From Minisyncoccota bacterium (GTDB lineage Bacteria > Patescibacteriota > Minisyncoccia > Phycocordibacterales > DATDSR01), in contig DATDVE010000019.1 in the NCBI GenBank assembly GCA_036517655.1, positions 1 to 61,078 on the forward strand: a stretch of 61,078 nucleotides of DNA, written 5' to 3'. Under the pieces are notes generated by a model. The model worked only from the letters and a program-made list of their open reading frames with translations, searched no databases and was not told where the DNA came from. Every line of letters begins with the position of its first letter. The first letter of the stretch is position 1. The translations under genes and the position numbers were made by a program. This document shows, in pieces, positions 4,763-44,672 of the stretch.

Positions 4763-6340
4763 CTATCTCTTTCTGAAGTACGTGCGCAGGAGCAGTACTA
4801 CTAACGATGTAGAAAGGATTGTGTTATACAAAACCCAAAATTGAATGGTGAGGTAGTTATAGTTTAACGGGTGCAGCTTGCCACTATAGGCCATGAACAT
4901 TATTAGGGCTGTGTAAGCGAGTAGATAGATAATCGCGGAAAAAGTTGCTTGTTTGAACGCCCGCGAGGCACCGGGCTGCTTGCTATTGGTCGCCACACGC
5001 GTGGTATTACTTTTGAAAATAGCAGCAACGATAGAGTGACTGCAACTATAGAGTTGGATGAAGTATGAATAGAACGCTCCCCTGCCGAAGCGCGATATGG
5101 GGAAGGCGAGCATATAGGCGAAGCCCCAAATCATGTACGGCAAGAAGATGATCGCGCCCGCGAGGTTGATGTAGTCGTTATAGAAGAAAAGTGTCCAGAA
5201 AAGTTGGAAAGAAAATAACAAAGTGAGCGGGTGGTGGAAATAATATAAGAAGCCGGTGATGTAGGAGAGCTTAGTCTTCCAGGAGACTTGCGCCTTCCAG
5301 AACTTGCGACCCATGAAAGGGAAGAGACTGCCCGTGCACCAAGTGTGTTGTTGGTGGAAGTAGGCGTGCGGATCGTTGGGGCAAGTGCCGATCCCCAAGA
5401 TCACGGGCACGTAGCGCACTGTCCAGCCGAGGGCTTGGAGATCGAAGCCTGTGTGGGCATCCTCGCTGTGTTCTTGCAAACTCGCGCCGCCAATTTGGGC
5501 AAGCGCTTCGCGTCTATAAATAGCATTCGAGCCGCAGCAAATAGTTGCATCAAGTCTATCGCGAGCCACTTCGATTATACGATAGAAGGCTTCCTGCGAG
5601 TGGGCCGCGCCGTAAGCCAGTGGCTGCTCGCGCTTAATCTTCTTGCCCATGTCGAAGTATTGCGGCGACTGCACAATGCCTATTCTCTTGCCACTGTCAT
5701 CATTGCTAGCATGCTCCATGTAGGGTAGGAGCTCGCGGATAAAGTCAGGATGTGGCGCGCAATCTGCGTCGAGGATTACGATAAACTCGCCCGAGCTCCG
5801 CTCGAAACCGTATCTAATATTACCTGCCTTCTTCATATAGCCTCTGTCTGGTCTGGACAAGTACTCGAAACCATACTGTTTGGCCATAACTTCTTGCTCT
5901 TTGCGTGAATCTTGATCTTTAGTATCGTCGAGCACGTACACTTTTTTATTCACATAGGGCAATGCGGCCACGTGTTGCCAAGTGTTGCGCAGTACACTTA
6001 ATTCTTCGCCGCAGATTGGCAAGAACACGTCAACGGATGGCTCCCCCTTCTTTCCTCCCCCATCTTTTTGGCTGGCCCAAAAGTTTTCTACACAAGCAAA
6101 GTGTTTGGTTAGATCGAAACGCTTGTAGAAAAGATTCTGGATAAAGCTCAAGAGATAATATGCAGAGAAGAAGAGCAGAAGCGGCCCGACGAACCAGCGA
6201 AAGAATAAGTCGTAGCGTATAGCGGGGATGAAGCCATATACAACCAAGAGCCAGGAGACAATGCCGAAAGCGAAAAACACCCGCACGAGCCATGTGGGTG
6301 TTTTTCGGACGTATAAGTATTTATCTATCTGCTCGACCAA
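4763..6340 (-). CDS. Family-2 glycosyltransferase, processive cellulose-synthase-like
   Basis: Motifs VLDD, KKAGNIRYG, ILDADC, SEDAHTG and QQHTWCTG (a QxxRW variant) lie between N- and C-terminal TM bundles. The start overlaps the upstream gene's stop by 16 nt. Confidence 0.85.
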   Translation of the reverse strand: MVEQIDKYLYVRKTPTWLVRVFFAFGIVSWLLVVYGFIPAIRYDLFFRWFVGPLLLFFSAYYLLSFIQNLFYKRFDLTKHFACVENFWASQKDGGGKKGEPSVDVFLPICGEELSVLRNTWQHVAALPYVNKKVYVLDDTKDQDSRKEQEVMAKQYGFEYLSRPDRGYMKKAGNIRYGFERSSGEFIVILDADCAPHPDFIRELLPYMEHASNDDSGKRIGIVQSPQYFDMGKKIKREQPLAYGAAHSQEAFYRIIEVARDRLDATICCGSNAIYRREALAQIGGASLQEHSEDAHTGFDLQALGWTVRYVPVILGIGTCPNDPHAYFHQQHTWCTGSLFPFMGRKFWKAQVSWKTKLSYITGFLYYFHHPLTLLFSFQLFWTLFFYNDYINLAGAIIFLPYMIWGFAYMLAFPISRFGRGAFYSYFIQLYSCSHSIVAAIFKSNTTRVATNSKQPGASRAFKQATFSAIIYLLAYTALIMFMAYSGKLHPLNYNYLTIQFWVLYNTILSTSLVVLLLRTYFRKR

Positions 6341-9300
6341 GGAATGAGTTGCTCGGGAGTGAACATCGGTATATCAAGTGTGATGCCACGTAATCTGCAG
6401 TACTCAATGTTGGCCTTGCGCCTAGTTGTCATGTAGAAGTGACCAGTGGGGCCATTCAAGTTCCAAGGAGTCAACACGTCTGTGGCATTGGTGGTCTGGA
6501 AAGTGTTCACTTGCGAGATTGTGAGCGGACCGTAGAAGCCGGTCATTGGTAGATTAGCGCTCTGGTATTCGTTCAAGAAAGATTGCAGGTTGGTGATAGT
6601 CTCATTGCCGGCAGTGTTACGTCCGCGCATTGCGTACTCGCTGAAGCGAGCAAGGCATGTCTGTGTGTTGCCACTTGAGTCTGTCGAAACACCCAAAACT
6701 TGACCCGCCCCCACCGGACCCACTGCCACTTGCCCTGAGCCCGTCGAAGGGCTCCCCACGGAAATGTAAGCACCCAGAACCGATCCCGAAGGCCCGGTCT
6801 GCGGAGCCGTAGGAGAACTGCCCACAATCTGTCCCCCGCCCCCACCACCGCCAGAACTCGCCGGAGGAGTAACTGGTGCAGGAGTATTATCTGTTGGATC
6901 GCAGGCATCGCCTATGCCGTCACTATCCTTGTCAGCCTGATCTTCGTTAGGAATCAACGGACAGTTATCAGCCGTATCAGCATCGCCGTCGTTGTCATCG
7001 TCATCATCACAAGCATCCCCCATAGCATCGCCATCAGTATTTAGTTGATCAGTATTTTCAACCAGTGGGCAGTTATCGGTTGAATCCAGAATGGTGTCAG
7101 AATCCGTGTCATCACAAACGTCACCCTCTGCATCTTCGTTCATGTTGGCCTGATTGCTGTTGGCATTGATTGGGCAGTTGTCGACCCCATTTAATACCGT
7201 GTCGCCATCCTTATCTGGATCGCAAGCATCGCCTATGCCGTCATCATCGAGGTCAGCCTGGTCGAGATTTGCAATCAAGGGACAATTGTCAGTTTCGTCA
7301 GGGACAGTGTCGTCGTCAGCATCACCATCGTCACATGCATCTCCAACTCCGTTTCCATCAATATCCTCTTGTCCTGGGTTCGAGACAAGCGGACAGTTGT
7401 CTGCATCATCTAGGTCATCGTCGTTGTCGTCATCAGTATCGCATGCATTACCTATTCCGTCCCCATCAGTGTCGAGTTGATCGATATTAGCCACCAGTGG
7501 ACAATTATCTGGAGTATCAAGAACCGTATCATTGTCATCGTCACCGTCACAAGCGTCTCCCGCACCATCACCGTCGGTATCTGTCTGGTCTGCATTCACT
7601 ATCAACGGACAGTTGTCTGCTGTGTCTAAGTCGTCATCATTATCATCGTCATCATCACAGACATCACCCAAACCGTCGCCATCGGTGTCAGTTTGATCGA
7701 GATTGGCAATCAAAGGACAATTGTCAGGTGTATCAAGAACTGTATCATTGTCGTCATCCGGATCGCAGGCGTCGCCTAGTCCATCCCCGTCCGTATCGGT
7801 TTGTTCCGGGTTGGCTACAAACGGGCAGTTATCCGTTGTGTCAAGATCCCCGTCATTATCATCATCGTCGTCGCAGGTATCGCCCATTGTGTCGCCGTCG
7901 TTATTGGCTTGATCAGTATTTGCATTCACTGGGCAGTTATCAGCGTCGTCAAGAATTGTGTCGTTATCATCGTCCGTATCACACTCATCGCCAATCCCAT
8001 CACCGTCGGTGTCAGTTTGATCTGGGTTTGAATTAATGGGACAGTTGTCTGTATCATCACGCACCGTATCATCATCAGTGTCTGGGTCACTCGGATCAGT
8101 TACAGTCTCGTCATCATTCAGCAAAGTATCACCATCCTTGTCTGGATCACACACATCGCCAAGACCGTCGCCATCTATATCTTCTTGCCCAGGGTTATCA
8201 ATTGTAGGACAGTTATCTGCGTCGTTTAGGACGCCGTCATCGTCCAGATCTGTATCAGATGTAACAATGACAGTGCGCGTTACTTGAGTCGCAGCAAGCC
8301 CGTCAGAATCAGACACGTCGTAGGTAATAGTGTACGTACCTTCTGCATTAGTTACTGTGTCGCCACCAACCACAATCGAAGACGTAAGATCGCCATCTTC
8401 CTCGTCAGTAGCTGTAGCACCGGGGTCAGAGAAAGTATCGTCAGTCTCAAGTACTATCGGGTCAGCTCCGATAAGAGTTATCACCGGAGCAGCATTATCG
8501 TCATTTGTTACAGCACAAATTATATCCTGATCTAAGACCAGTGTTCCAGTGTCACAGTCATCTGCGTAGGAAACCGCGTATGTTCCTGGATTGTCCTCAA
8601 CTATTGTGTAGGAGCCCAGCCCAGCAATAGCTACTGTCTGGTCGCTCACAACATCCGAGTGAGTGCCGTCAGCGGCAGTGATGGTGAAGGTAAAACTATC
8701 CGCAGAAGATGTACCACCGTCAGTGTTATCAACTGTCTTGTTTATCGTGATTGTCGGTTTGTATGGTTCGCAGTCAGAGTCATCAAAATCAGTATCTCCG
8801 TCAGTATCGTTATCCGCGCCATCAGTACAAAGTCCACCAGTTTCAGTAGATGGAGGGTTTACAACTATTTCTACGTCAATTGTCTCGTCCCCATCTTGCA
8901 AGAACGAAGCACCACCGCCTGTCTTGAAGCTGTTGTTTTTGTTTGCTTCTGCAATAAAGGTAAACGTACCGCCCGTACTTGCAACTGTTGCCGTAAAGAT
9001 AAATGAAATAGAATCACCCGCATCGATGCCATCGCTACCAGTGTTTAGACTTGCCTCGAGAACCCCGGGCTCACCGAAATCGTCAAGGTCCCATTTCCCG
9101 GCATCTTCGGCGTCACTAAAAGATAAACTCGAAAGACCAGATGTCAGAGTAAATCCGGCAGGAAGGTTTAACCTGATTGCCTTCATTTCATCAGTCGAAC
9201 TTGCTGCGTTCGTGAATGTGACTGTAAATTCCACCTCAGAATCGGCATCTACGATCGTAGGAGAGATCGTAACACTAGCCTCACGCACCGGAGCCCCTGC

Positions 9301-9423
9301 AGCTGTGACATACTCGGTGGTCCAGAAACTTGCTCCTACGGACCAGAGGGCCATGGAAAAGACCAGGGCTAGATGGGTTATTTTTCCCACTGTGCTCTTG
9401 CCTACGTTAAATTTGTCGTACAT
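6325..9423 (-). CDS. Giant surface protein with thrombospondin type-3 repeats, Ig-like domains and a PG-binding-like C-terminal module
   Basis: 1032 aa with an N-terminal anchor/signal. It has a C-x-DG-x-DND-x-DG motif and a DUF5011-like Ig domain (PVITLIGADP..TYTITYDVSDSDG). Twelve NCPxxxNxxQxDxDGDGxGDxCD units and a Gly-rich linker precede the shared C-terminal module. Confidence 0.85.
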   Translation of the reverse strand: MYDKFNVGKSTVGKITHLALVFSMALWSVGASFWTTEYVTAAGAPVREASVTISPTIVDADSEVEFTVTFTNAASSTDEMKAIRLNLPAGFTLTSGLSSLSFSDAEDAGKWDLDDFGEPGVLEASLNTGSDGIDAGDSISFIFTATVASTGGTFTFIAEANKNNSFKTGGGASFLQDGDETIDVEIVVNPPSTETGGLCTDGADNDTDGDTDFDDSDCEPYKPTITINKTVDNTDGGTSSADSFTFTITAADGTHSDVVSDQTVAIAGLGSYTIVEDNPGTYAVSYADDCDTGTLVLDQDIICAVTNDDNAAPVITLIGADPIVLETDDTFSDPGATATDEEDGDLTSSIVVGGDTVTNAEGTYTITYDVSDSDGLAATQVTRTVIVTSDTDLDDDGVLNDADNCPTIDNPGQEDIDGDGLGDVCDPDKDGDTLLNDDETVTDPSDPDTDDDTVRDDTDNCPINSNPDQTDTDGDGIGDECDTDDDNDTILDDADNCPVNANTDQANNDGDTMGDTCDDDDDNDGDLDTTDNCPFVANPEQTDTDGDGLGDACDPDDDNDTVLDTPDNCPLIANLDQTDTDGDGLGDVCDDDDDNDDDLDTADNCPLIVNADQTDTDGDGAGDACDGDDDNDTVLDTPDNCPLVANIDQLDTDGDGIGNACDTDDDNDDDLDDADNCPLVSNPGQEDIDGNGVGDACDDGDADDDTVPDETDNCPLIANLDQADLDDDGIGDACDPDKDGDTVLNGVDNCPINANSNQANMNEDAEGDVCDDTDSDTILDSTDNCPLVENTDQLNTDGDAMGDACDDDDDNDGDADTADNCPLIPNEDQADKDSDGIGDACDPTDNTPAPVTPPASSGGGGGGGQIVGSSPTAPQTGPSGSVLGAYISVGSPSTGSGQVAVGPVGAGQVLGVSTDSSGNTQTCLARFSEYAMRGRNTAGNETITNLQSFLNEYQSANLPMTGFYGPLTISQVNTFQTTNATDVLTPWNLNGPTGHFYMTTRRKANIEYCRLRGITLDIPMFTPEQLIPWSSR
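6897..8245 (-). repeat. Tandem in-frame array of 12 TSP3-type Ca-binding repeats (~108 nt each)
   Basis: Repeated NCP(L/I)..N.DQ.DTDGDG.GDACD.DDDND units are visible in the translation. The shadow ORFs on the plus strand are artefacts of this array. Confidence 0.8.
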
Positions 9424-9561: not shown

Positions 9562-10341
9562 CTACTCCAGTGCAAGCAGGATCGCCATCAGGGCGAAGCC
9601 TGTGATGATTGCGATTAATTGAATTAGAGATTTGCGGGCACTACTTGTTTTTTGTAATTCTGGCACTAAGTCAGAGGCGGCTATGTAGAGGAAGCCGCCG
9701 GCGGTTATAGGTAGGATAAGTTCTATCAAGCCCTCACTGTTGCCCTTCAAGGCCACGACAATAAGAAGGCCGGCGAATGAGGCAAGGGCAGAGAGGAAGT
9801 TGAGAAAGAGCGCTCTTGCTCGCGAGAAGCCGACGTGCAGGAGTAACCCAAAATCCCCGATTTCCTGCGGGATCTCGTGGAGTATCACAGCAATCGTTGT
9901 AGCGATGCCAACTTCGGTGCTCACTAGATACGCACCACCAATCACGATGCCATCTATTAGGTTGTGCAAGCCGTCAGAGATAATGTTCATGTAGCCGATG
10001 TGCTGATTGGCATGACCGGAGTCAATCTCCACGCCCACTTCATGCACTTCGCCCTCGTGGCCGTGGTGCCAGCGCAGGAACTTCTCAAGAACGAAAAAGA
10101 TTAAAAAGCCCACGAAGATAAGTGAGGTGATCTTGGGCGTCACCTCTAATTCTGGCAGAATATGCAGGAAGACGTCACCCAAGAGTGCTCCCACAGAGAG
10201 GCTAATTAGGGCAAACAAGACCTTGCGCAACCTGATTACGTTGAGAGAAATGGTGAAGAGGCCAACGAGGGATATGAGGCTAACTATTAGTATGGATAGA
10301 GCGGCTAGCCAGAGCATGCCACTATGATATACTAAATTCAT
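9562..10341 (-). CDS. ZIP-family divalent metal transporter
   Basis: Multi-TM protein with a His-rich loop (HHGHEGEVHEVG) and the ZIP signature HEIPQEIGDFGLLL. Confidence 0.85.
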   Translation of the reverse strand: MNLVYHSGMLWLAALSILIVSLISLVGLFTISLNVIRLRKVLFALISLSVGALLGDVFLHILPELEVTPKITSLIFVGFLIFFVLEKFLRWHHGHEGEVHEVGVEIDSGHANQHIGYMNIISDGLHNLIDGIVIGGAYLVSTEVGIATTIAVILHEIPQEIGDFGLLLHVGFSRARALFLNFLSALASFAGLLIVVALKGNSEGLIELILPITAGGFLYIAASDLVPELQKTSSARKSLIQLIAIITGFALMAILLALE

Positions 10342-10353
10342 AGCAATAAAAAT

Positions 10354-10371
10354 AACGGGATGGGTCCCGTT
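10354..10371 (-). promoter_or_regulatory. Terminator-like hairpin in the ZIP transporter leader
   Basis: Minus strand reads AACGGGA-CCCA-TCCCGTT followed by ATTTTTATTGCT, then the ATG 12 nt downstream. Confidence 0.3.
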
Positions 10372-10442
10372 AGAAATTAAGTCGCGGGGTCATACATAAT
10401 ATTAAGTAGACAGTATGGTTTATTATTTAAATTTCTAATGGG

Positions 10443-11186
10443 ATGGAGACACAAAATCAAAACGAGAATAGCTCCGCGCCAGAATCCAAGTTGTCTGTAC
10501 CCGCGGCAATAATCGTGGCCGGCGTCATCGTCGCCCTTGCGCTCATTTATACAGGAGGCGGTAAGGGAAGCGGGTCGAATCCCGACCTTGCGGGCCAGAA
10601 GAATTCCGAGCAGAAGAAGCAGGCCGACAATGTTGTCCCGGTTAGCCCAGGCGAACACATATTGGGTAATCCAAATGCGCAAGTTATGGTCGTGGAATTC
10701 TCTGACATCGAGTGCCCATTCTGTAAACGCTTCCATGACACAATGCATCAAGTGATCGAAGAATACGGCAAGGATGGCAAGGTGGCTTGGGTCTATCGCC
10801 ACTTCCCTCTCCAGATCCACCCTAAGGCCACACCGGAAGCAGAAGCAACAGAGTGCGTTTGGGAACAAGGCGGAAATGAATTGTTTTGGAGCTATCTTGA
10901 CGCGCTATTCGCCGCGAGCCTCTCAAATAATCAGACCGATCCTGCTGTGCCCGCGCAAGTGGCTAAGACAATAGGCGTGGATATGGCAAAGTACAACGAG
11001 TGTACACGTACACGCAAGTACCAAGCAAAAGTTGTGGCGCAGATGGAGGACGGCTTCAATTCTGGAGTCACGGGTACACCATATAGTATTGTGATCGCCG
11101 CAAATGGCAAGAAATTCCCAATCAACGGAGCCCTGCCCATCGAGAGTGTGCGAACAGTGATCGAGCAAGCCCTTAAAGAAAAATAA
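10443..11186 (+). CDS. DsbA-family thiol:disulfide oxidoreductase, membrane-anchored
   Basis: Has an N-terminal TM segment. VVEFSDIECPFCKRFH contains the CPFC active site, followed by a DsbA-like helical insert. Confidence 0.85.
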   Translation: METQNQNENSSAPESKLSVPAAIIVAGVIVALALIYTGGGKGSGSNPDLAGQKNSEQKKQADNVVPVSPGEHILGNPNAQVMVVEFSDIECPFCKRFHDTMHQVIEEYGKDGKVAWVYRHFPLQIHPKATPEAEATECVWEQGGNELFWSYLDALFAASLSNNQTDPAVPAQVAKTIGVDMAKYNECTRTRKYQAKVVAQMEDGFNSGVTGTPYSIVIAANGKKFPINGALPIESVRTVIEQALKEK

Positions 11187-40295: not shown

Positions 40296-42320
40296 TCAAA
40301 CGTCAACCTCTGCTAGTTTGGCGTTCGCTTGGATGAAGAGCTTGCGTGGTTCGACTTCGTCTCCCATTAGGATTTCGAATGTTTTGTCGGCTTCGAGAAC
40401 GTCGTCTATGTTTACTTGTTTTAAGATACGCCCTGCCGGATCCATGGTGGTCTCCCACAGTTCCGAGGGATTCATTTCTCCCAAGCCTTTATAGCGCTGT
40501 ATTCGGAATTTGCCCTGCTTCTTTTCTTCTGTTTCTTCGCCTTCTTCTGCAGATTCAACTTGAGGTTCCTTGCCAATTATTTTTGCTTTCTCTTCGTCAG
40601 AATATGCGTAGTTTACTTCTTTGCCTTTTGAGATTTTATACAACGGCGGTTGGGCAATGTAAATAAATCCGCCTTCTATTAGCGGCTTATAATATCTGTA
40701 AAAGAGCGTGAGCAAGAGCGTGCGGATATGCGAGCCGTCTACGTCAGCATCTGTGGCGATTATGATCTTATGATAACGTAGCTTTTCTATATTAAACGTG
40801 TCGCCAATGGCAGCGCCCAGAGCTATGACGATGTTCTTAACCTCTTGCGAAGCGAGCATCTTATCAAGCCTCGCCCGTTCTACGTTTAAGATCTTGCCGC
40901 GTAAGGGCAGAATTGCCTGTGTGCGGCGATCGCGTCCTTGTTTGGCCGAGCCACCTGCTGAATCCCCCTCTACAATAAAGAGCTCGCTCTCTTGGGCTGA
41001 TTTGCTTTGGCAATCTGCGAGCTTGCCCGGGAGTGTCATGCCCTCAAGCGCGCCCTTGCGCAGAACGCTATCTTTAGCCGCCTTAGCCGCCTTGCGTGCT
41101 CGCACAGCGATTATCACTTTGTTGATTATTGCCTTGGCATCATCGGGGTGTTCTTCCAAGAAGCCGTTAAACGCATCGCCAAAGACTGTGCTCACGGCCG
41201 TCTGGGCCTCCACAGATCCCAGCTTTGCCTTAGTCTGACCCTCGAATTGCGGGTCTGGAATCTTGACTGATATTACAGCCGTGAGACCTTCGCGCACGTC
41301 GTCGCCCGTGAACGCATCATCACCATCCTTGATCCAACTATTCTTCTTGGCATAAGTATTTAGTGTTCTGGTCAGAGCTGTTCTAAATCCAGATAAGTGC
41401 GTGCCACCCTCGGGTGTGGGGGTGTTATTGGCGAAAGAATATTCGTGCGAAGTAATATCATCCACGTATTGCAGTGCAATCTCTACTGCTACTTTTTCCG
41501 CCTCCTTCTCTATATAAAAGATATTTTTGTGTACAGGTTTTTCTGTCTGATTATAAAATGTGACAAACGAAACTAACCCCCCTTCGAAATAAAACGCATA
41601 AGATGGCACGTCTAGTTCTAGCTCGTTGAAATAGAGCACGTTCTCAAGATCTATCTTGCCCTTGTATTCACGAGCATCGTAGGCTCTAATTCTGACTTTC
41701 TTTGATAAATATGCCTGCTCGCGCAGGTAGTCAACTATGCGTTTCCAGCCATAAACAGTTTCAGAAAAAACTGTTACGTCTGACTTGAAGGTGATGACTG
41801 TGCCGTGAGCTTTAGTCTTGCCAACTTTCTTCACGTTCGCTTTCTTCTTGCCGCGAGCATACTCCTGCATCCATACTTCACTATCCTTGTGCACTTCGGC
41901 TCGTGTCCATTCAGAGAGGGCGTTCACGACAGAGGCACCCACGCCGTGCAAACCGCCCGAAACTTTGTAAGCATTCTGGTCGAATTTGCCACCCGCATGT
42001 AGCGTAGTCATAACTGTCTCAAGCGCACTCACTTTGGTTGTCTTGTGGATGTCAACGGGAATGCCGCGGCCATTATCTGCAACCCTAACTACTTCGTCAG
42101 GAAGTAGCGTGATCTCGATGTCATTTGCATAACCGCCCATAGCCTCGTCGCGCGAGTTGTCGAAAATCTCCTTAACCATGTGGAATAAGCCCTCCGGCCC
42201 AGTTGACCCAATGTACATACCCGGCCGCTTGCGAACCGGTTCAAGACCCTCAAGAACCGAAATAGAACTAGCATCGTATAGGTGCCCGCTTCCGTTCTCT
42301 TTTGCCTTATCCTTGGCCAT
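40296..42320 (-). CDS. gyrB: DNA gyrase subunit B
   Basis: GLEPVRKRPGMYIGST, GGLHGVGASVVNALS, EGDSAGGSAKQGRDR and PLRGKILNVE are present. Confidence 0.97.
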   Translation of the reverse strand: MAKDKAKENGSGHLYDASSISVLEGLEPVRKRPGMYIGSTGPEGLFHMVKEIFDNSRDEAMGGYANDIEITLLPDEVVRVADNGRGIPVDIHKTTKVSALETVMTTLHAGGKFDQNAYKVSGGLHGVGASVVNALSEWTRAEVHKDSEVWMQEYARGKKKANVKKVGKTKAHGTVITFKSDVTVFSETVYGWKRIVDYLREQAYLSKKVRIRAYDAREYKGKIDLENVLYFNELELDVPSYAFYFEGGLVSFVTFYNQTEKPVHKNIFYIEKEAEKVAVEIALQYVDDITSHEYSFANNTPTPEGGTHLSGFRTALTRTLNTYAKKNSWIKDGDDAFTGDDVREGLTAVISVKIPDPQFEGQTKAKLGSVEAQTAVSTVFGDAFNGFLEEHPDDAKAIINKVIIAVRARKAAKAAKDSVLRKGALEGMTLPGKLADCQSKSAQESELFIVEGDSAGGSAKQGRDRRTQAILPLRGKILNVERARLDKMLASQEVKNIVIALGAAIGDTFNIEKLRYHKIIIATDADVDGSHIRTLLLTLFYRYYKPLIEGGFIYIAQPPLYKISKGKEVNYAYSDEEKAKIIGKEPQVESAEEGEETEEKKQGKFRIQRYKGLGEMNPSELWETTMDPAGRILKQVNIDDVLEADKTFEILMGDEVEPRKLFIQANAKLAEVDV

Positions 42321-42373
42321 ATTTACTTGTTAATTATAGCATAATTCACCCCCGATTTCATCCCCAATTTTCC

Positions 42374-42402
42374 TTGACTTTTAGTACGGAAGGTGATACA
42401 AT
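42374..42402 (+). promoter_or_regulatory. Sigma70-like promoter for 42429..42668
   Basis: TTGACT (42374-42379), 17 nt, TACAAT (42397-42402). Confidence 0.5.
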
Positions 42403-42428
42403 CATAGGTAGAAATTGAGGGGAGAAAG

Positions 42429-42668
42429 GTGACACCATTGGCCAAGAAACTTGCAATCGTGATCATATCAGACAACAGAACCAAGAGGGCCACGGTGGCC
42501 TATCGCAACCGGAGGGCCGACGAGGCAACTTTCGACCAGAGGCCCTACGAGAGTATGGTAGAGATCGAGGGACAGACGATCACTCTACCTTTTACTAACA
42601 CATTCTGTCTCGTCACGCTCATGAAGGAAGGCGGCAAGTGGTATTTTGTGGACCGCCAAATCCGCTAG
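42429..42668 (+). CDS. Hypothetical 79-aa protein (GC-rich island G)
   Basis: GTG start preceded by a GAGGGGAGAAAG SD, with a promoter upstream and a terminator downstream. No family recognised. Confidence 0.45.
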   Translation: MTPLAKKLAIVIISDNRTKRATVAYRNRRADEATFDQRPYESMVEIEGQTITLPFTNTFCLVTLMKEGGKWYFVDRQIR

Positions 42669-42674
42669 CTAGAA

Positions 42675-42715
42675 GGCCCCGGGGAACCCCTCACCCCGCG
42701 GGCCTTTCGTTTTTT
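42675..42715 (+). terminator. Intrinsic terminator after 42429..42668
   Basis: GGCCCCGGGG pairs with CCCCGCGGGCC, followed by TTTCGTTTTTT. Confidence 0.6.
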
Positions 42716-43040
42716 ACAAATTAAGAAATTGCTTCATCTGTGCATCTAGCGTCTGAAGTACTGAACGATCAATTGAACCTACAAATTTAGACAATCGTTT
42801 TGTTGAAATAACTCTAATCTGAAATACGAGCGCGACAGAGGTCAGAGAAAGTCCATTACGTTTATTGGGTTCGACAAGTAAGGTAAAGGGGAACCTCAAC
42901 GCATCCTCATTTGACGTACACGGGACCACAACCACTGTTCCTGAAATATTAGAACTATAAACAATCGCCGGCCTTGCGCCAGCTTGTTCATGACCAGTAG
43001 TGTTTGGGAAATCGACCAAATATATCTCCCCTTTTCTCAT
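42714..43040 (-). CDS. mazF: MazF/PemK-family type II toxin endoribonuclease
   Basis: MRKGEIYLVDFPNTTGHEQAGARPAIV...VVPCTS...SVALVFQIRVISTKRL. Confidence 0.85.
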   Translation of the reverse strand: MRKGEIYLVDFPNTTGHEQAGARPAIVYSSNISGTVVVVPCTSNEDALRFPFTLLVEPNKRNGLSLTSVALVFQIRVISTKRLSKFVGSIDRSVLQTLDAQMKQFLNL

Positions 43041-43046
43041 CGTAAA

Positions 43047-43268
43047 TCAATTAGGAAGTCTGTGCTCGAAATTTGTGAGCGCTTCATCACTTAATTGTTC
43101 CCATGCGTTAAACTCTTGACTCAAACTGGTAACATTTTTTACACGCTCCAGAAAATATAGGACCGCGCGCTTCACAAATTCTCCTTCTTGCACTCCAAAA
43201 ACCTTGGATGCAAGTTTAACCCGCTTTCTCGTTTGTTTTGAAAATCTTGGTTGTGTTAGGACATCCAT
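43047..43268 (-). CDS. Putative cognate antitoxin
   Basis: 73-aa ORF 6 nt upstream of mazF, in the canonical antitoxin-first order. Confidence 0.55.
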   Translation of the reverse strand: MDVLTQPRFSKQTRKRVKLASKVFGVQEGEFVKRAVLYFLERVKNVTSLSQEFNAWEQLSDEALTNFEHRLPN

Positions 43269-43315
43269 GTATTTATATTAGCTTGTTCGTCGTAAGTATA
43301 CCACATCCCCCGAAA

Positions 43316-44455
43316 CTAGCGTAATTCTGCCTTATACACTTCTTTAGTTTGGTCGTAGACTTTCTTCTGTAGTGCATCTACTTCTTCGTTTGTTAGCGTG
43401 CGATCGAGACTGCGGTAAGTTATGCGATATGTGTAGCTTATTTTGCCTTCGCCAAACTTTTGCGCGTTCTCATACTTATCTATCAGCTCTACTTGCTCTA
43501 TAAGATCGCCGCCGATGTCTCTGATCAGGTCAAAGTAATTGTTGGGCACGAAGTCGCTACTTACGACAAACGAGATGTCGCGCACTACGGCTGGGAATTT
43601 AGAAACTTCTTGATACTTTTGCCCAAGTTCAAGTTGCTTTTTAACTCGCGGATCTTCTGACCAAAGTAATCTTACGTCTGGTAACTCCATACTCATCATG
43701 GCGAACCTCTCAAGGCCAGGGCCCATAGCCCAGCCATTCCACTTATCGCCGTCAACTCCCAGAAGTTTGAGAACACTACCCTTCACAACGCCTGCGCCAC
43801 ATAGTTCGATCCACTGACCGTTAACTTCGACCTCCATGTCGATTGAGGGGTCCGTGTACGGGAAGCTATCTTCGTTGAATCGATATTTAACATCCGGCCC
43901 AATAACTGCCTTGGCCACATTGGCAAGTGCTCTCTCAAGATCTTGCTTACCTAGAACTTCTTTATCTTTGGGCGAAAGATACCATGCGTCTATCTGATGG
44001 AAGACGTTCATGTGCTTCCGGTCAATTTCATCTTTGCGATAAACTTTTCCGTACGAGAAGCAGCCCACAGATTCTCCCTTCTCCATCCTTGCTTTGACGT
44101 CAGGATCGAGCAGATAGTAGTACCACATAATAGTAGTGTGGGTGCGCAGTATGTGATTGTCGTCTACATAATAAGTATCAGATTTAGAACGCGCCGGATG
44201 ATCCTTGGCAAAACCAAAGAGATCAAATGTTATCTCTGTTGATACAACTTCAGAAGTCTCGATGTCGTCAAAATTCTTGTAATCTGGTATACCAAGAATC
44301 CTATCTACAATATCTTTCAGCGGCGAGCCTGGGGTACGAGAGAGATCTGGCATAGCCATGTAGCGACGTATGCGCACAGCTTCCGAATCTGTACGCTCTG
44401 CAAGATTCTCTAGTGGTTCACGTGTATCTTCCTTTGCATCAATGTTTCGTCTCAT
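43316..44455 (-). CDS. pheS: Phenylalanyl-tRNA synthetase, mitochondrial-type monomeric form (PheS core plus FDX-ACB domain)
   Basis: Class II core: DHPARSKSDTYYV..ILRTHTT, VYRKDEIDRKHMNVFHQID, GWAMGPGLERFAMM. The C-terminal SKFPAVVRDISFVV...DLIRDIGGDLIEQVELIDKY...YTYRITYRSLDRTLTNEEV is an FDX-ACB domain. It is colinear with human FARS2 as I recall it. Confidence 0.85.
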   Translation of the reverse strand: MRRNIDAKEDTREPLENLAERTDSEAVRIRRYMAMPDLSRTPGSPLKDIVDRILGIPDYKNFDDIETSEVVSTEITFDLFGFAKDHPARSKSDTYYVDDNHILRTHTTIMWYYYLLDPDVKARMEKGESVGCFSYGKVYRKDEIDRKHMNVFHQIDAWYLSPKDKEVLGKQDLERALANVAKAVIGPDVKYRFNEDSFPYTDPSIDMEVEVNGQWIELCGAGVVKGSVLKLLGVDGDKWNGWAMGPGLERFAMMSMELPDVRLLWSEDPRVKKQLELGQKYQEVSKFPAVVRDISFVVSSDFVPNNYFDLIRDIGGDLIEQVELIDKYENAQKFGEGKISYTYRITYRSLDRTLTNEEVDALQKKVYDQTKEVYKAELR

Positions 44456-44614
44456 ATGTCTTTAATTATAGTCTATAAATGGCAAACCCGCCGGGTGGCG
44501 GGAGTTCGTGCATAAACAATGAACCACCCGCTACGCCGGCTCCATAAAGCTAAACTGGAAGCTAAAGAAAAAAGCGTGATTGGTCATACCAAAAGATTAG
44601 CGCATTGAAGAAAT

Positions 44615-44659
44615 AAAGCAAGCAAGAATTGCGAAGGCCCGGGGTTGTTCTCCCGGGCC
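44615..44659 (-). terminator. Hairpin after 44673..45008
   Basis: GGCCCGGG (44636-44643) pairs with CCCGGGCC (44652-44659). On the minus strand it is followed by CTTCGCAATTCTTGCTTGCTT. Confidence 0.5.
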
Positions 44660-44672
44660 CACTCCCCACTCA

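What the first reader, a model, noticed from the sequence alone, without database searches (positions are those of the whole stretch)
43316..44455. Mitochondrial-type monomeric phenylalanyl-tRNA synthetase in a bacterium
The 379-aa protein joins a PheS class II catalytic core to a C-terminal FDX-ACB (ferredoxin-fold anticodon-binding) domain. That domain normally ends the bacterial beta subunit PheT. The whole sequence is colinear with human mitochondrial FARS2 as I recall it. Examples are DHPxR..D.YY, VYR.D.ID..H...FHQ, FP.T.PS.EME...G.W.E..G.GV, GWA.G.GLER.AM.....PD.RL.W.ED.R, SK.PAV..DISF, DL.R.IGGDL.E.V.LIDK. and YRITYR...RTL...EV. It lacks the long N-terminal coiled coil of bacterial PheS, and no pheT is adjacent. 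Canonical bacterial PheRS is an (alpha-beta)2 heterotetramer, so a monomeric form here bears on genome minimisation and on the origin of the organellar enzyme.
Basis: partly seen in the sequence, partly recalled or inferred. Interest (0 to 1): 0.7.

Follow-up and report, generated by a model that had tools for sequence, protein, structure and literature searches.

The report
Single-chain mitochondrial-type PheRS in bacteria
This gene encodes a one-piece phenylalanine-tRNA-charging enzyme of the type known from mitochondria, and it is a very highly conserved housekeeping gene across a large radiation of tiny-genome (CPR/Patescibacteria) bacteria, where textbooks expect a two-gene, four-subunit enzyme.

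Summary
ORF 43316-44455 (-) encodes a 379-aa protein made of a PheS-type class II catalytic core and a C-terminal FDX-ACB (PheT-B8) anticodon-binding domain. It is colinear with human mitochondrial PheRS and predicted to share its fold (TM 0.76-0.78). It lies on a bacterial chromosome of a Parcubacteria-type CPR organism, between gyrB and tRNA-Thr. All catalytic residues, the Phe-specificity residues and the four residues that read anticodon base G34 are conserved. It is not SrmL, NCBI's 'mystery ligase': it scores below that cutoff, sits in a separate clade, and SrmL has lost those residues. The family is large (>6000 relatives at E<=1e-10; 182 GTDB species matched using patterns from this one sequence), single-copy, syntenic with gyrB, and more conserved than ThrRS, RF, S2 or EF-Ts. 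Rooted trees indicate one alpha-B8 fusion event and place the bacterial clade as sister to the organellar clade. No canonical pheS or pheT was found in 1.49 Mb of related DNA. In 16 of 84 loci a free-standing PheT-B2 domain gene precedes the gene. Two points remain untested: genome-wide absence of pheS/pheT, and the monomeric state. Ten full-text searches found no paper describing this.

The parts
43316..44455 (-). Complete gene for the 379-aa single-chain PheRS (stop codon 43316-43318)
   Evidence: ORF list. Identical protein on 13 contigs. Homologs of 65-84% identity and the same length and domains.
44327..44455 (-). Short N-terminal helical region (aa 1-43), in place of the long coiled coil of canonical PheS
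   Evidence: No Phe_tRNA-synt_N hit. The AF2 model shows helices at 12-20, 24-34 and 45-54. The region is conserved among CPR homologs: D23, R28, M35, D37 and L38 are invariant.
43634..44326 (-). Class II PheS-type catalytic module (aa 44-274)
   Evidence: Pfam PF01409, E 2.7e-50. Structural matches to canonical PheS cores.
43988..44047 (-). Motif 2 (aa 137-156, KVYRKDEIDRKHMNVFHQID), including the ATP-binding R140 and H153/Q154/D156
   Evidence: Invariant in 47 CPR homologs. Aligned with E. coli GRVYRND..FHQME and eukaryotic GDVYRRDEID..FHQME. Glu is replaced by Asp at position 156.
43844..43864 (-). Phe-pocket loop FPYTDPS (aa 198-204). T201 corresponds to E. coli PheS T251. The second Phe of the canonical FPFT is Tyr200 here.
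   Evidence: F198, P199, T201, P203 and S204 are invariant and Y200 is >=90% conserved. Alignment with E. coli FPFTEPS.
43700..43735 (-). Motif 3 (aa 241-252, GWAMGPGLERFA). A243 corresponds to the E. coli PheS A294 specificity residue, and R250 is the motif-3 arginine.
   Evidence: G241, W242, A243, G245, G247 and R250 are invariant. Alignment.
43319..43603 (-). FDX-ACB / PheT-B8-type anticodon-binding domain (aa 285-379)
   Evidence: Pfam PF03147, E 5.1e-24. Matches TIGR00472 positions 698-798. 25-31% identical to canonical PheT B8 domains and 32-45% to the organellar-type and phage-borne domains of the eukaryote-like clade (45% and 41% to the two presequence-bearing ones).
43436..43480 (-). 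G34-recognition residues D326, Y328 and S340 (LIDKY...KISY). The fourth residue, R379, is the last codon at 43319-43321.
   Evidence: These correspond to human D364, F366 (= T. thermophilus beta-Tyr731), S375 and R414 (PMC7540514). The mapping uses the alignments. D326, S340 and R379 are invariant and Y328 is >=90% conserved.
44456..44672 (-). 217-nt upstream intergenic region. A TATAAT hexamer lies at 44465-44470, nine nt before the ATG, and there is no obvious Shine-Dalgarno sequence.
   Evidence: Read directly from the sequence. The promoter scan did not call it, because there is no matching -35 element. Weak evidence only.

Best explanation
The gene encodes a functional single-chain phenylalanyl-tRNA synthetase of the mitochondrial (PheRS-M) design: the catalytic module of PheS fused to the B8 anticodon-binding domain of PheT, with none of the other beta-subunit domains. 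It is most likely the housekeeping PheRS, and probably the only one, of this Parcubacteria-type CPR bacterium. Proposed mechanism: the catalytic module binds ATP (motif-2 R140, motif-3 R250) and Phe (FHQxD, FPYT loop, T201, A243) and forms Phe-AMP. The C-terminal domain reads G34 of tRNAPhe(GAA) through D326, Y328, S340 and R379. As in human mtPheRS, the anticodon-binding domain swings from a closed apo position to an open position when tRNA binds, and Phe is transferred to A76. With no B3/B4 domain there is no post-transfer editing of Tyr-tRNAPhe, so accuracy depends on the synthetic site alone. Shown here: the architecture, the predicted fold, residue conservation, strong purifying selection, single copy, housekeeping synteny, and wide distribution in the CPR. 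Inferred: catalytic activity, monomeric state, domain swing, lack of editing, and absence of pheS/pheT from the rest of the genome.
For: Domains. Colinearity with human mtPheRS at E 2e-58. AF2 model with pLDDT 91.4 and pTM 0.89, whose best structural matches are closed-state human mtPheRS (TM 0.76-0.78, rmsd 3.4-4.0 A over ~390-407 columns); the open tRNA-bound form 3TUP gives TM 0.58. Catalytic, specificity and G34-reading residues are invariant or >=90% conserved in 47 homologs, and their roles are documented for the human enzyme (PMC7540514). The gene is more conserved than other essential genes in the same genome pairs: +3.4 identity points over GyrB (n=54), +13.6 over ThrRS (n=12), +13.4 over RF, +18.0 over S2 and +15.3 over EF-Ts. 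There is one copy per locus in 84 loci, and gyrB lies within 3 kb in 54 of 80 genomes. 182 GTDB species genomes matched from patterns of this one sequence; >6000 relatives at E<=1e-10, a count that is not restricted to this family. A code-25 (Gracilibacteria/Absconditabacteria-type) CPR lineage also has it. Five-sequence PheS and PheT profiles found no canonical PheS and no PheT B1, B3/4, B5 or B6/7 domains in 1.49 Mb of related CPR DNA. In 16 of 84 loci a free-standing PheT-B2 domain gene is operon-linked upstream; this fits a dismantled beta subunit of which only the tRNA-binding pieces survive.
Against: The protein scores below the curated cutoff of TIGR00469 pheS_mito (240.4 vs 258.35), and its best NCBIfam hit by score is SrmL (261.8 vs cutoff 300). 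Genome-wide absence of pheS/pheT was not tested. The 1.49 Mb examined is all anchored on this one gene, so if pheT were placed at random only about 1.6 chance encounters would be expected, and finding none is weak evidence. Some CPR lineages do have PheRS-beta (PMC5370408). A related Oligoflexia protein sits among metabolic genes and may be an accessory paralogue, so this architecture can exist as an extra copy. Two active-site positions differ from the canonical and organellar enzymes (Glu to Asp156; second Phe of FPFT to Tyr200) with unknown effect. No tRNAPhe gene was found in the loci, so identity elements could not be checked.
Confidence: 0.72

Rival explanations
1. It is an extra paralogue. 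The genome also encodes a normal (alpha-beta)2 PheRS elsewhere, and this single-chain enzyme is a second PheRS (for example stress-specific or analogue-resistant) or has a specialised tRNA-dependent role.
For: Genome-wide absence of pheS/pheT was not tested. Other CPR lineages have PheRS-beta. The same architecture occurs in an Oligoflexia bacterium next to peptidase, GCS2 and racemase-type genes, which looks accessory, and as SrmL in non-housekeeping contexts.
Against: Accessory paralogues are not normally single-copy, syntenic with gyrB in 54 of 80 species, and more conserved than ThrRS, RF, S2 and EF-Ts. No canonical subunit was found in 1.49 Mb. The operon-linked free B2 domain looks like a remnant of a lost pheT. 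These genomes are small and reduced, which makes redundancy less likely (general knowledge of the CPR).
Confidence: 0.2
2. It is a member of the SrmL 'PheS-related mystery ligase' family (NF051887), or works like one, joining something other than Phe to tRNAPhe.
For: SrmL is the top NCBIfam hit by score (261.8 bits, profile positions 32-346 of 349), and SrmL falls in the same bacterial subclade with 80% bootstrap.
Against: The score is below the 300-bit cutoff, whereas true SrmL proteins score 376-446. SrmL forms a separate long-branched clade with 100% support. SrmL has lost most of the residues this protein keeps: FHQ becomes EPHQ/IIHH in four of five representatives, the FPFT.PS loop becomes HPYT..G (HYYT..G in one), GxG becomes ECG, the G34-reading aromatic is gone and the Ser is Asn in all five (the Asp survives in three), and the C-terminal Arg is missing in four of five. 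The one SrmL locus examined lies beside a defence-type reverse transcriptase and is not in a housekeeping context.
Confidence: 0.03
3. It is a recent transfer from a eukaryote (a nuclear FARS2-type gene captured by a CPR bacterium), or eukaryotic contamination or mis-assembly.
For: The best solved-structure and sequence matches are eukaryotic mitochondrial enzymes.
Against: The identical gene with the same bacterial neighbours was recovered in several independent assemblies. GC content matches the surrounding DNA. The CPR sequences form their own 99-100% supported clade, which groups with other bacterial forms (80%) outside the eukaryote/virus clade (70%) and is not nested within eukaryotes. 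The family spans at least the Parcubacteria group, Doudnabacteria and a code-25 lineage.
Confidence: 0.03

Closest known systems
Eukaryotic mitochondrial/organellar PheRS (human FARS2; AARS Online family PheRS-M; TIGR00469 pheS_mito; PDB 3CMQ, 3TUP)
   Same: Same two-domain design (alpha catalytic module plus B8/FDX-ACB), colinear sequence, and the same predicted fold in the closed state (TM 0.76-0.78). Same motif 2/3 residues, Thr/Ala specificity residues and G34-reading Asp/aromatic/Ser/Arg tetrad. No editing domain. Both domains share a single origin with it, with 100% support against canonical PheS and PheT.
   Different: Encoded on a bacterial chromosome with no targeting peptide. It belongs to a separate bacterial clade that is sister to the organellar clade. 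Identity is only about 30-44% in the core. The score is just under the TIGR00469 cutoff (240 vs 258), although a family member, P0121, passes at 264. Asp replaces Glu after FHQx, and Tyr replaces the second Phe of FPFT. The loop before the G34-reading Ser is longer and PheT-like. In some genomes it is paired with a free-standing B2 domain gene.
Canonical bacterial (alpha-beta)2 PheRS: PheS (TIGR00468) plus PheT (TIGR00472)
   Same: The catalytic core is homologous to PheS (28-33% identity), and the C-terminal domain is homologous to PheT B8 (25-31% identity). The G34-reading residues match those of PheT: LFDVY, KS, and the terminal LR.
   Different: One polypeptide in place of two. There is no N-terminal coiled coil and no B1, B3/B4 (editing), B5 or B6/7 domains. 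No adjacent pheT. Scores are far below both cutoffs: 141 vs 237 and 81 vs 403.
SrmL, 'PheS-related mystery ligase' (NCBIfam NF051887)
   Same: Same two-domain architecture and similar length. It is a bacterial (and huge-phage) protein in the same bacterial subclade of the fused family.
   Different: SrmL has lost the PheRS active-site signature and most of the anticodon-reading residues, has a long insertion in the FDX-ACB domain, and lies on a long branch. The one locus examined sits beside a defence-type reverse transcriptase. The window protein keeps all PheRS residues and scores below the SrmL cutoff.

Membership tests
Mitochondrial-type single-chain PheRS (PheRS-M / TIGR00469) | Architecture: PheS-type class II catalytic module fused to a C-terminal FDX-ACB (B8) domain, with no other beta-subunit domains | tested here: met
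   Pfam PF01409 at 44-274 and PF03147 at 285-379, nothing else
Mitochondrial-type single-chain PheRS (PheRS-M / TIGR00469) | Score at or above the curated TIGR00469 equivalog cutoff (258.35 bits) | tested here: not met
   240.4 bits. A 61%-identical family member, P0121, scores 264.3 and passes.
Mitochondrial-type single-chain PheRS (PheRS-M / TIGR00469) | Full-length fold equivalent to solved human mtPheRS | tested here: met
   AF2 model with pLDDT 91.4. Foldseek top hits 5mgh, 5mgw, 3cmq and 8p8x with TM 0.76-0.78 and E about 1e-33. This is a predicted structure, not an experimental one.
Mitochondrial-type single-chain PheRS (PheRS-M / TIGR00469) | Conserved class II motif 2/3 arginines, FHQ, and the Thr/Ala Phe-specificity residues | tested here: met
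   R140, H153, Q154, T201, A243 and R250 are invariant in 47 homologs. Two substitutions were noted (D156, Y200).
Mitochondrial-type single-chain PheRS (PheRS-M / TIGR00469) | G34-recognition tetrad of the anticodon-binding domain (human D364, F366, S375, R414) | tested here: met
   D326, Y328, S340 and R379
Mitochondrial-type single-chain PheRS (PheRS-M / TIGR00469) | Common descent with the organellar enzymes: clade of fused proteins separate from canonical PheS and PheT | tested here: met
   100% bootstrap for both domains against five canonical outgroups. It falls in a bacterial sister clade, not inside the eukaryote-like clade. NJ trees only.
Mitochondrial-type single-chain PheRS (PheRS-M / TIGR00469) | Acts as a monomer | not testable with these tools
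   Inferred from homology and the lack of beta-subunit domains. No multimer modelling or experiment was available.
Mitochondrial-type single-chain PheRS (PheRS-M / TIGR00469) | Charges tRNAPhe with phenylalanine | not testable with these tools
   Needs an aminoacylation assay or complementation.
Mitochondrial-type single-chain PheRS (PheRS-M / TIGR00469) | Replaces the heterotetrameric enzyme in its compartment or cell (no pheS/pheT) | tested here: inconclusive
   None found in the window, in about 20 kb of extension, or in 1.49 Mb of related loci. Whole genomes could not be searched.
SrmL (NF051887) | Score at or above the curated cutoff (300 bits) | tested here: not met
   261.8 bits. True members score 376-446.
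SrmL (NF051887) | Placement in the SrmL clade, and the SrmL-type diverged residues (EPHQ, HPYT..G, ECG, Asn in place of the G34-reading Ser) | tested here: not met
   Separate clades, each with 99-100% support. The window protein has the PheRS residues.
Canonical bacterial PheS (TIGR00468) | Score at or above the cutoff (237.45), N-terminal coiled coil, and a partner pheT gene | tested here: not met
   141.4 bits. No PF02912 hit. No pheT in the window or flanks.
Canonical bacterial PheT (TIGR00472) | Full multi-domain beta subunit (B1-B8) | tested here: not met
   Only profile positions 698-798 match, 80.8 bits vs cutoff 402.65.

The most novel reading that the evidence does not exclude
The one-polypeptide alpha-B8 PheRS was invented in bacteria, not in eukaryotes. 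Large parts of the CPR/Patescibacteria (the Parcubacteria group, Doudnabacteria and code-25 lineages) have discarded pheS/pheT and translate with this editing-free enzyme. Some of them still keep the beta-subunit B2 domain as a separate operon partner, which would be a living intermediate of beta-subunit dismantling. Under this reading the eukaryotic organellar PheRS and the huge-phage copies descend from such a bacterial single-chain enzyme, which would explain why mtPheRS never looked alphaproteobacterial.
Probability: 0.3. Interest if true: 0.85.

Novelty: new variant of a known kind. Interest (0 to 1): 0.68.

Why it matters
Reviews of PheRS state that the heterotetramer is conserved in all prokaryotes and that the mitochondrial enzyme is the only monomeric enzyme with a class II catalytic module (PMC3275996). 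A deeply conserved bacterial clade of the same design would change that picture. It would show that a free-standing cell can probably run cytoplasmic translation with the smallest known PheRS and no Tyr-editing site, which bears on minimal-genome design and translational fidelity. It would give the organellar enzyme a bacterial sister group, so its origin becomes testable by phylogeny. It would provide a compact bacterial single-gene PheRS for genetic-code engineering. There are practical consequences too. NCBI labels every named homolog in the two hit lists 'hypothetical protein', while JGI labels these proteins 'alpha chain' and the 140-aa B2 protein 'beta chain'. Two consequences follow, though neither was tested here: pheS/pheT marker-based completeness estimates and phylogenomic marker sets may misjudge these genomes, and bacterial PheRS inhibitors aimed at the alpha-beta interface or the editing site would not apply to them.

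Tried and rejected
1. SrmL membership: considered because it was the top NCBIfam hit, and rejected on score, clade and residues.
2. Literature: ten full-text searches found nothing on a bacterial single-chain PheRS. They combined PheRS, phenylalanyl-tRNA synthetase, pheT, FDX-ACB, 'monomeric PheRS' and 'FARS2-like' with CPR, Patescibacteria and Parcubacteria. The candidate papers I read were irrelevant to the question.
Searching the protein database with the B2 domain, hoping to surface CPR full-length PheT, returned only 140-aa stand-alone proteins in the top 120. Extending the window by about 10 kb each side found nothing.
4. tRNAPhe identity elements: no tRNAPhe gene in the window or in 50 related loci.
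5. Rfam: only tRNA-Thr, and no leader or T-box upstream of the gene.
6. Promoter and terminator scan: no better than shuffled controls.
7. Whether the B2-linked loci form one clade: they do not, being scattered over a 44-tip subtree, so I draw no conclusion on whether the linkage is ancestral.
Full report
THE OBSERVATION. Pfam finds the PheS-type class II core (PF01409, residues 44-274, E 2.7e-50) and the ferredoxin-fold anticodon-binding domain (PF03147, residues 285-379, E 5.1e-24). It finds no PheS N-terminal coiled-coil domain. Against all PDB sequences the best matches are human mitochondrial PheRS (E about 2e-58), colinear over residues 54-366. Canonical PheS chains match only the core, and PheT chains match only the last ~100 residues.

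THE SETTING. The window is an ordinary bacterial chromosome segment. It carries rpoB, rpoC, dnaG, rpoD, dnaE, RNase R, thrS and gyrB, a MazF-type toxin, a PaaX-like regulator, AhpC, a release factor, and ribosomal protein genes for L25 and L31 seen in the matching assemblies, plus one tRNA-Thr. The identical protein occurs on 13 contigs, with the same neighbours on the two long enough to show them. One of these is a 146.9-kb Rifle groundwater scaffold, which let me see about 10 kb beyond each end of the window. The nearest species-level relatives are MAGs labelled Patescibacteria, Zambryskibacteria, Yanofskybacteria, Nomurabacteria, Paceibacteria/Minisyncoccia and Doudnabacteria. In NCBI taxonomy, Zambryskibacteria belongs to the Parcubacteria group of the Patescibacteria (CPR), while Doudnabacteria is placed as a separate candidate phylum outside that group.

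IS IT A REAL PheRS OR A LOOK-ALIKE? NCBIfam raised a complication. The highest-scoring model was NF051887, 'PheS-related mystery ligase SrmL' (261.8 bits, cutoff 300). TIGR00469 pheS_mito followed (240.4 bits, cutoff 258.35). Both are below threshold. An exhaustive search of 1.84 billion representative proteins returned 9121 relatives. Among them I identified true SrmL proteins scoring 376-446 bits, eukaryotic organellar enzymes (Vitrella, Euglena and other eukaryote transcriptomes), an Oligoflexia protein, and compact ~350-aa proteins that pass TIGR00469.

Residue-by-residue comparison settles the question. The CPR clade keeps motif 2 (VYRKDEID..H..FHQ), the Phe-pocket loop FPYTDPS, and G-x-G-V-V. 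It also keeps motif 3 (GWA.G.G.ER), which includes the Thr and Ala that correspond to E. coli T251 and A294, the classic Phe-specificity residues. It keeps all four residues that read anticodon base G34 in the human enzyme: D364, F366, S375 and R414 (PMC7540514), which here are D326, Y328, S340 and R379. Canonical PheT B8 domains have the same tetrad. SrmL has replaced most of these. FHQ becomes EPHQ or IIHH in four of five representatives. The pocket loop becomes HPYT..G (HYYT..G in one) and GxG becomes ECG. In the anticodon-binding domain the stacking aromatic is gone and the Ser is Asn in all five, the Asp survives in three, and the terminal Arg is absent in four of five. The window protein is therefore PheRS-like in every functional position and is not SrmL. 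Two substitutions are characteristic of the clade: Asp for Glu after FHQx, and Tyr for the second Phe of FPFT.

STRUCTURE. An AlphaFold2 model built from 47 homologs is confident (mean pLDDT 91.4, pTM 0.89). Its best matches among solved structures are human mtPheRS in the closed apo state (TM 0.76-0.78, rmsd 3.4-4.0 A over ~390-407 columns). The open tRNA-bound form 3TUP gives TM 0.58, and canonical PheS chains align only with the core. The domain arrangement is thus predicted to be that of the mitochondrial enzyme. The closed-to-open swing on tRNA binding is inferred by analogy.

HOW WIDESPREAD AND HOW CONSTRAINED. The large protein database holds more than 6000 relatives at E<=1e-10. The best 120 are all ~380 aa with the same two domains and 64-84% identical. 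NCBI names them 'hypothetical protein' and JGI names them 'phenylalanyl-tRNA synthetase alpha chain'. Patterns derived from this one protein found 182 confirmed copies among GTDB species-representative genomes. Each of the 84 loci fetched holds exactly one copy, and gyrB lies within 3 kb in 54 of 80 genomes. Across the same genome pairs the protein is slightly more conserved than GyrB (+3.4 identity points, n=54). It is far more conserved than ThrRS (+13.6), release factor (+13.4), S2 (+18.0) and EF-Ts (+15.3). That is the behaviour of an essential core gene. A related gene with 13 in-frame TGA codons at conserved glycine positions shows that a code-25 CPR lineage (Gracilibacteria/Absconditabacteria type) has the enzyme as well.

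IS IT THE ONLY PheRS? This is the key open point. There is no other PheS-like or FDX-ACB ORF in the window or in the extensions. Profiles built from five canonical PheS and five canonical PheT sequences found nothing in 1.49 Mb of related CPR DNA except this gene and one further element. That element was unexpected. In 16 of 84 loci a ~140-aa ORF lies directly upstream on the same strand, often overlapping the PheRS start. It is a free-standing PheT-B2 tRNA-binding domain. It scores best against the pheT model at positions 40-150 (112 bits), ahead of YtpR (89), TapR (46) and the MetRS C-terminal and CsaA-type models (all about 22 or less). This family has 744 members, all stand-alone, which JGI labels 'beta chain'. 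In one Doudnabacteria MAG the two genes carry consecutive locus tags. The picture fits a beta subunit reduced to its two tRNA-binding pieces, B8 fused and B2 free. These are still indirect arguments. All the DNA examined is anchored on one gene, so the expected number of chance pheT encounters is only about 1.6. Other CPR lineages do have PheRS-beta (PMC5370408). I could not search whole genomes. I put 'sole PheRS' at roughly 0.7.

EVOLUTION. I used five canonical PheS/PheT pairs as outgroups: E. coli, plus four recovered from bacterial DNA deposited as 'phage' records. All two-domain proteins form one clade apart from PheS (100% bootstrap), and their C-terminal domains form one clade apart from PheT-B8 (100%). 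This indicates a single fusion event. Within the fused family the catalytic-domain tree splits into a eukaryote/virus-like clade (70%) and a bacterial clade (80%). The bacterial clade contains SrmL plus a huge-phage protein (100%), and [(CPR 99% + code-25 98%) 73% + Oligoflexia] 85%. The CPR enzyme is therefore a sister of the organellar enzymes and is not nested within them. That argues against a recent eukaryote-to-CPR transfer and leaves open a bacterial origin for the organellar form. These are neighbour-joining trees on 208 and 92 columns and should be treated as provisional.

NOVELTY. The enzyme design is known from mitochondria, so this is not a new kind of enzyme. What appears to be undescribed is a deeply conserved, probably housekeeping, bacterial clade of it. 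A review from the laboratory that solved these structures states that the heterotetramer is conserved in all prokaryotes and that the mitochondrial enzyme is the only monomeric enzyme with a class II catalytic module (PMC3275996). Ten full-text searches of about 8.3 million papers found no mention of a bacterial or CPR single-chain PheRS. Subscription-only literature could not be searched. Database curators have evidently seen related proteins, since TIGR00469 hits some of them and the SrmL model exists.

VERDICT. The evidence strongly supports a single-chain, mitochondrial-type PheRS that serves as a core gene of Parcubacteria-type CPR bacteria. Its status as the sole PheRS and its monomeric state remain to be shown.

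Noticed in passing
L019:9427-9858(+) next to PheRS at ~10001-11140; also L008, L010, L012, L014, L016, L020, L021, L022, L023, L026, L028, L034, L036, L037, L057. Not in the window.: A ~140-aa free-standing PheT-B2 (tRNA_bind, PF01588) domain gene lies immediately upstream of the single-chain PheRS gene, co-oriented and often overlapping its start. Its best NCBIfam match is pheT positions 40-150 (112 bits). The family has 744 stand-alone members; JGI labels them 'PheRS beta chain' and NCBI 'hypothetical'. It could be a trans-acting tRNA-binding partner and a remnant of a dismantled beta subunit.
   Followed up: partly
L086 (160-kb Logan contig), L100 (341-kb scaffold), L101 (29-kb contig): Compact 338-354-aa single-chain PheRS genes, of which four of the five representatives scanned clear the TIGR00469 cutoff comfortably and P0172 only just (P0191 itself was not scanned), sit in phage-like neighbourhoods: dense runs of small unknown ORFs with a phage metallopeptidase, PcfJ, GP88, ThyX, dNMP kinase, eIF-1a, RRF and ArgRS. 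Huge phages appear to carry mitochondrial-type PheRS.
   Followed up: partly
L097:5893-6978(+) (LR745206.1, a 634,780-bp 'uncultured phage'): This megaphage encodes an SrmL-type protein (EPHQMD, HYYT..G, ECG signatures) that clusters with SrmL at 100% bootstrap.
   Followed up: partly
L089:9463-10833(+) and L090:154-1524(+): A related single-chain PheRS gene has 13 in-frame TGA codons at positions where Gly is otherwise conserved, including motif 3. This implies genetic code 25 (Gracilibacteria/Absconditabacteria-type CPR). The database translation had read TGA as Trp. The gene lies next to an F-type ATP synthase operon.
   Followed up: yes
L088:605-9741: A true SrmL gene is followed by two ~740-aa proteins of unknown function, a reverse transcriptase matching defence-type RTs (PADLOC RT, UG26, UG17, Drt9), a 564-aa unknown protein and a PLD-like protein. 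SrmL may belong to a defence or mobile-element module.
   Followed up: partly
L087:10001-11245 (Oligoflexia MAG JAIBBV010000034.1): A 414-aa single-chain PheRS-like protein (43% identical to the query, PheRS residues retained) lies among peptidase M20, GCS2 and two MR_MLE racemase-type genes in a non-CPR bacterium. This may be an accessory paralogue.
   Followed up: no
window 42714-43268 (-): A MazF/PemK-family toxin gene (42714-43040) and a 73-aa upstream ORF with no Pfam hit (43047-43268), probably its antitoxin, lie 47 nt downstream of the PheRS gene on the same strand. They were seen on the two same-organism contigs long enough to show neighbours; the more distant loci were not checked for them.
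   Followed up: no
window 40296-44455 and 54 of 80 related loci: The single-chain PheRS gene and gyrB lie within 3 kb of each other in 54 of 80 species genomes. In many loci tRNA-Met/tRNA-Asp or tRNA-Thr genes also flank the PheRS gene.
   Followed up: partly
window 6325-9423 (-): A 1032-aa predicted surface protein with eight thrombospondin type-3 repeats and a bacterial Ig-like domain. This is an unusual adhesin-like protein for a small-genome episymbiont.
   Followed up: no
window 44465-44470 (-): A perfect TATAAT hexamer lies nine nt upstream of the PheRS ATG, with no recognisable Shine-Dalgarno sequence. The mRNA may be leaderless or have a very short leader.
   Followed up: no
window 43988-44047 and 43844-43864 (-): Two clade-specific active-site substitutions: FHQxE becomes FHQxD (D156 invariant) and FPFT becomes FPYT (Y200 >=90% conserved). 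They might affect Phe/Tyr discrimination in an enzyme that has no editing domain.
   Followed up: no
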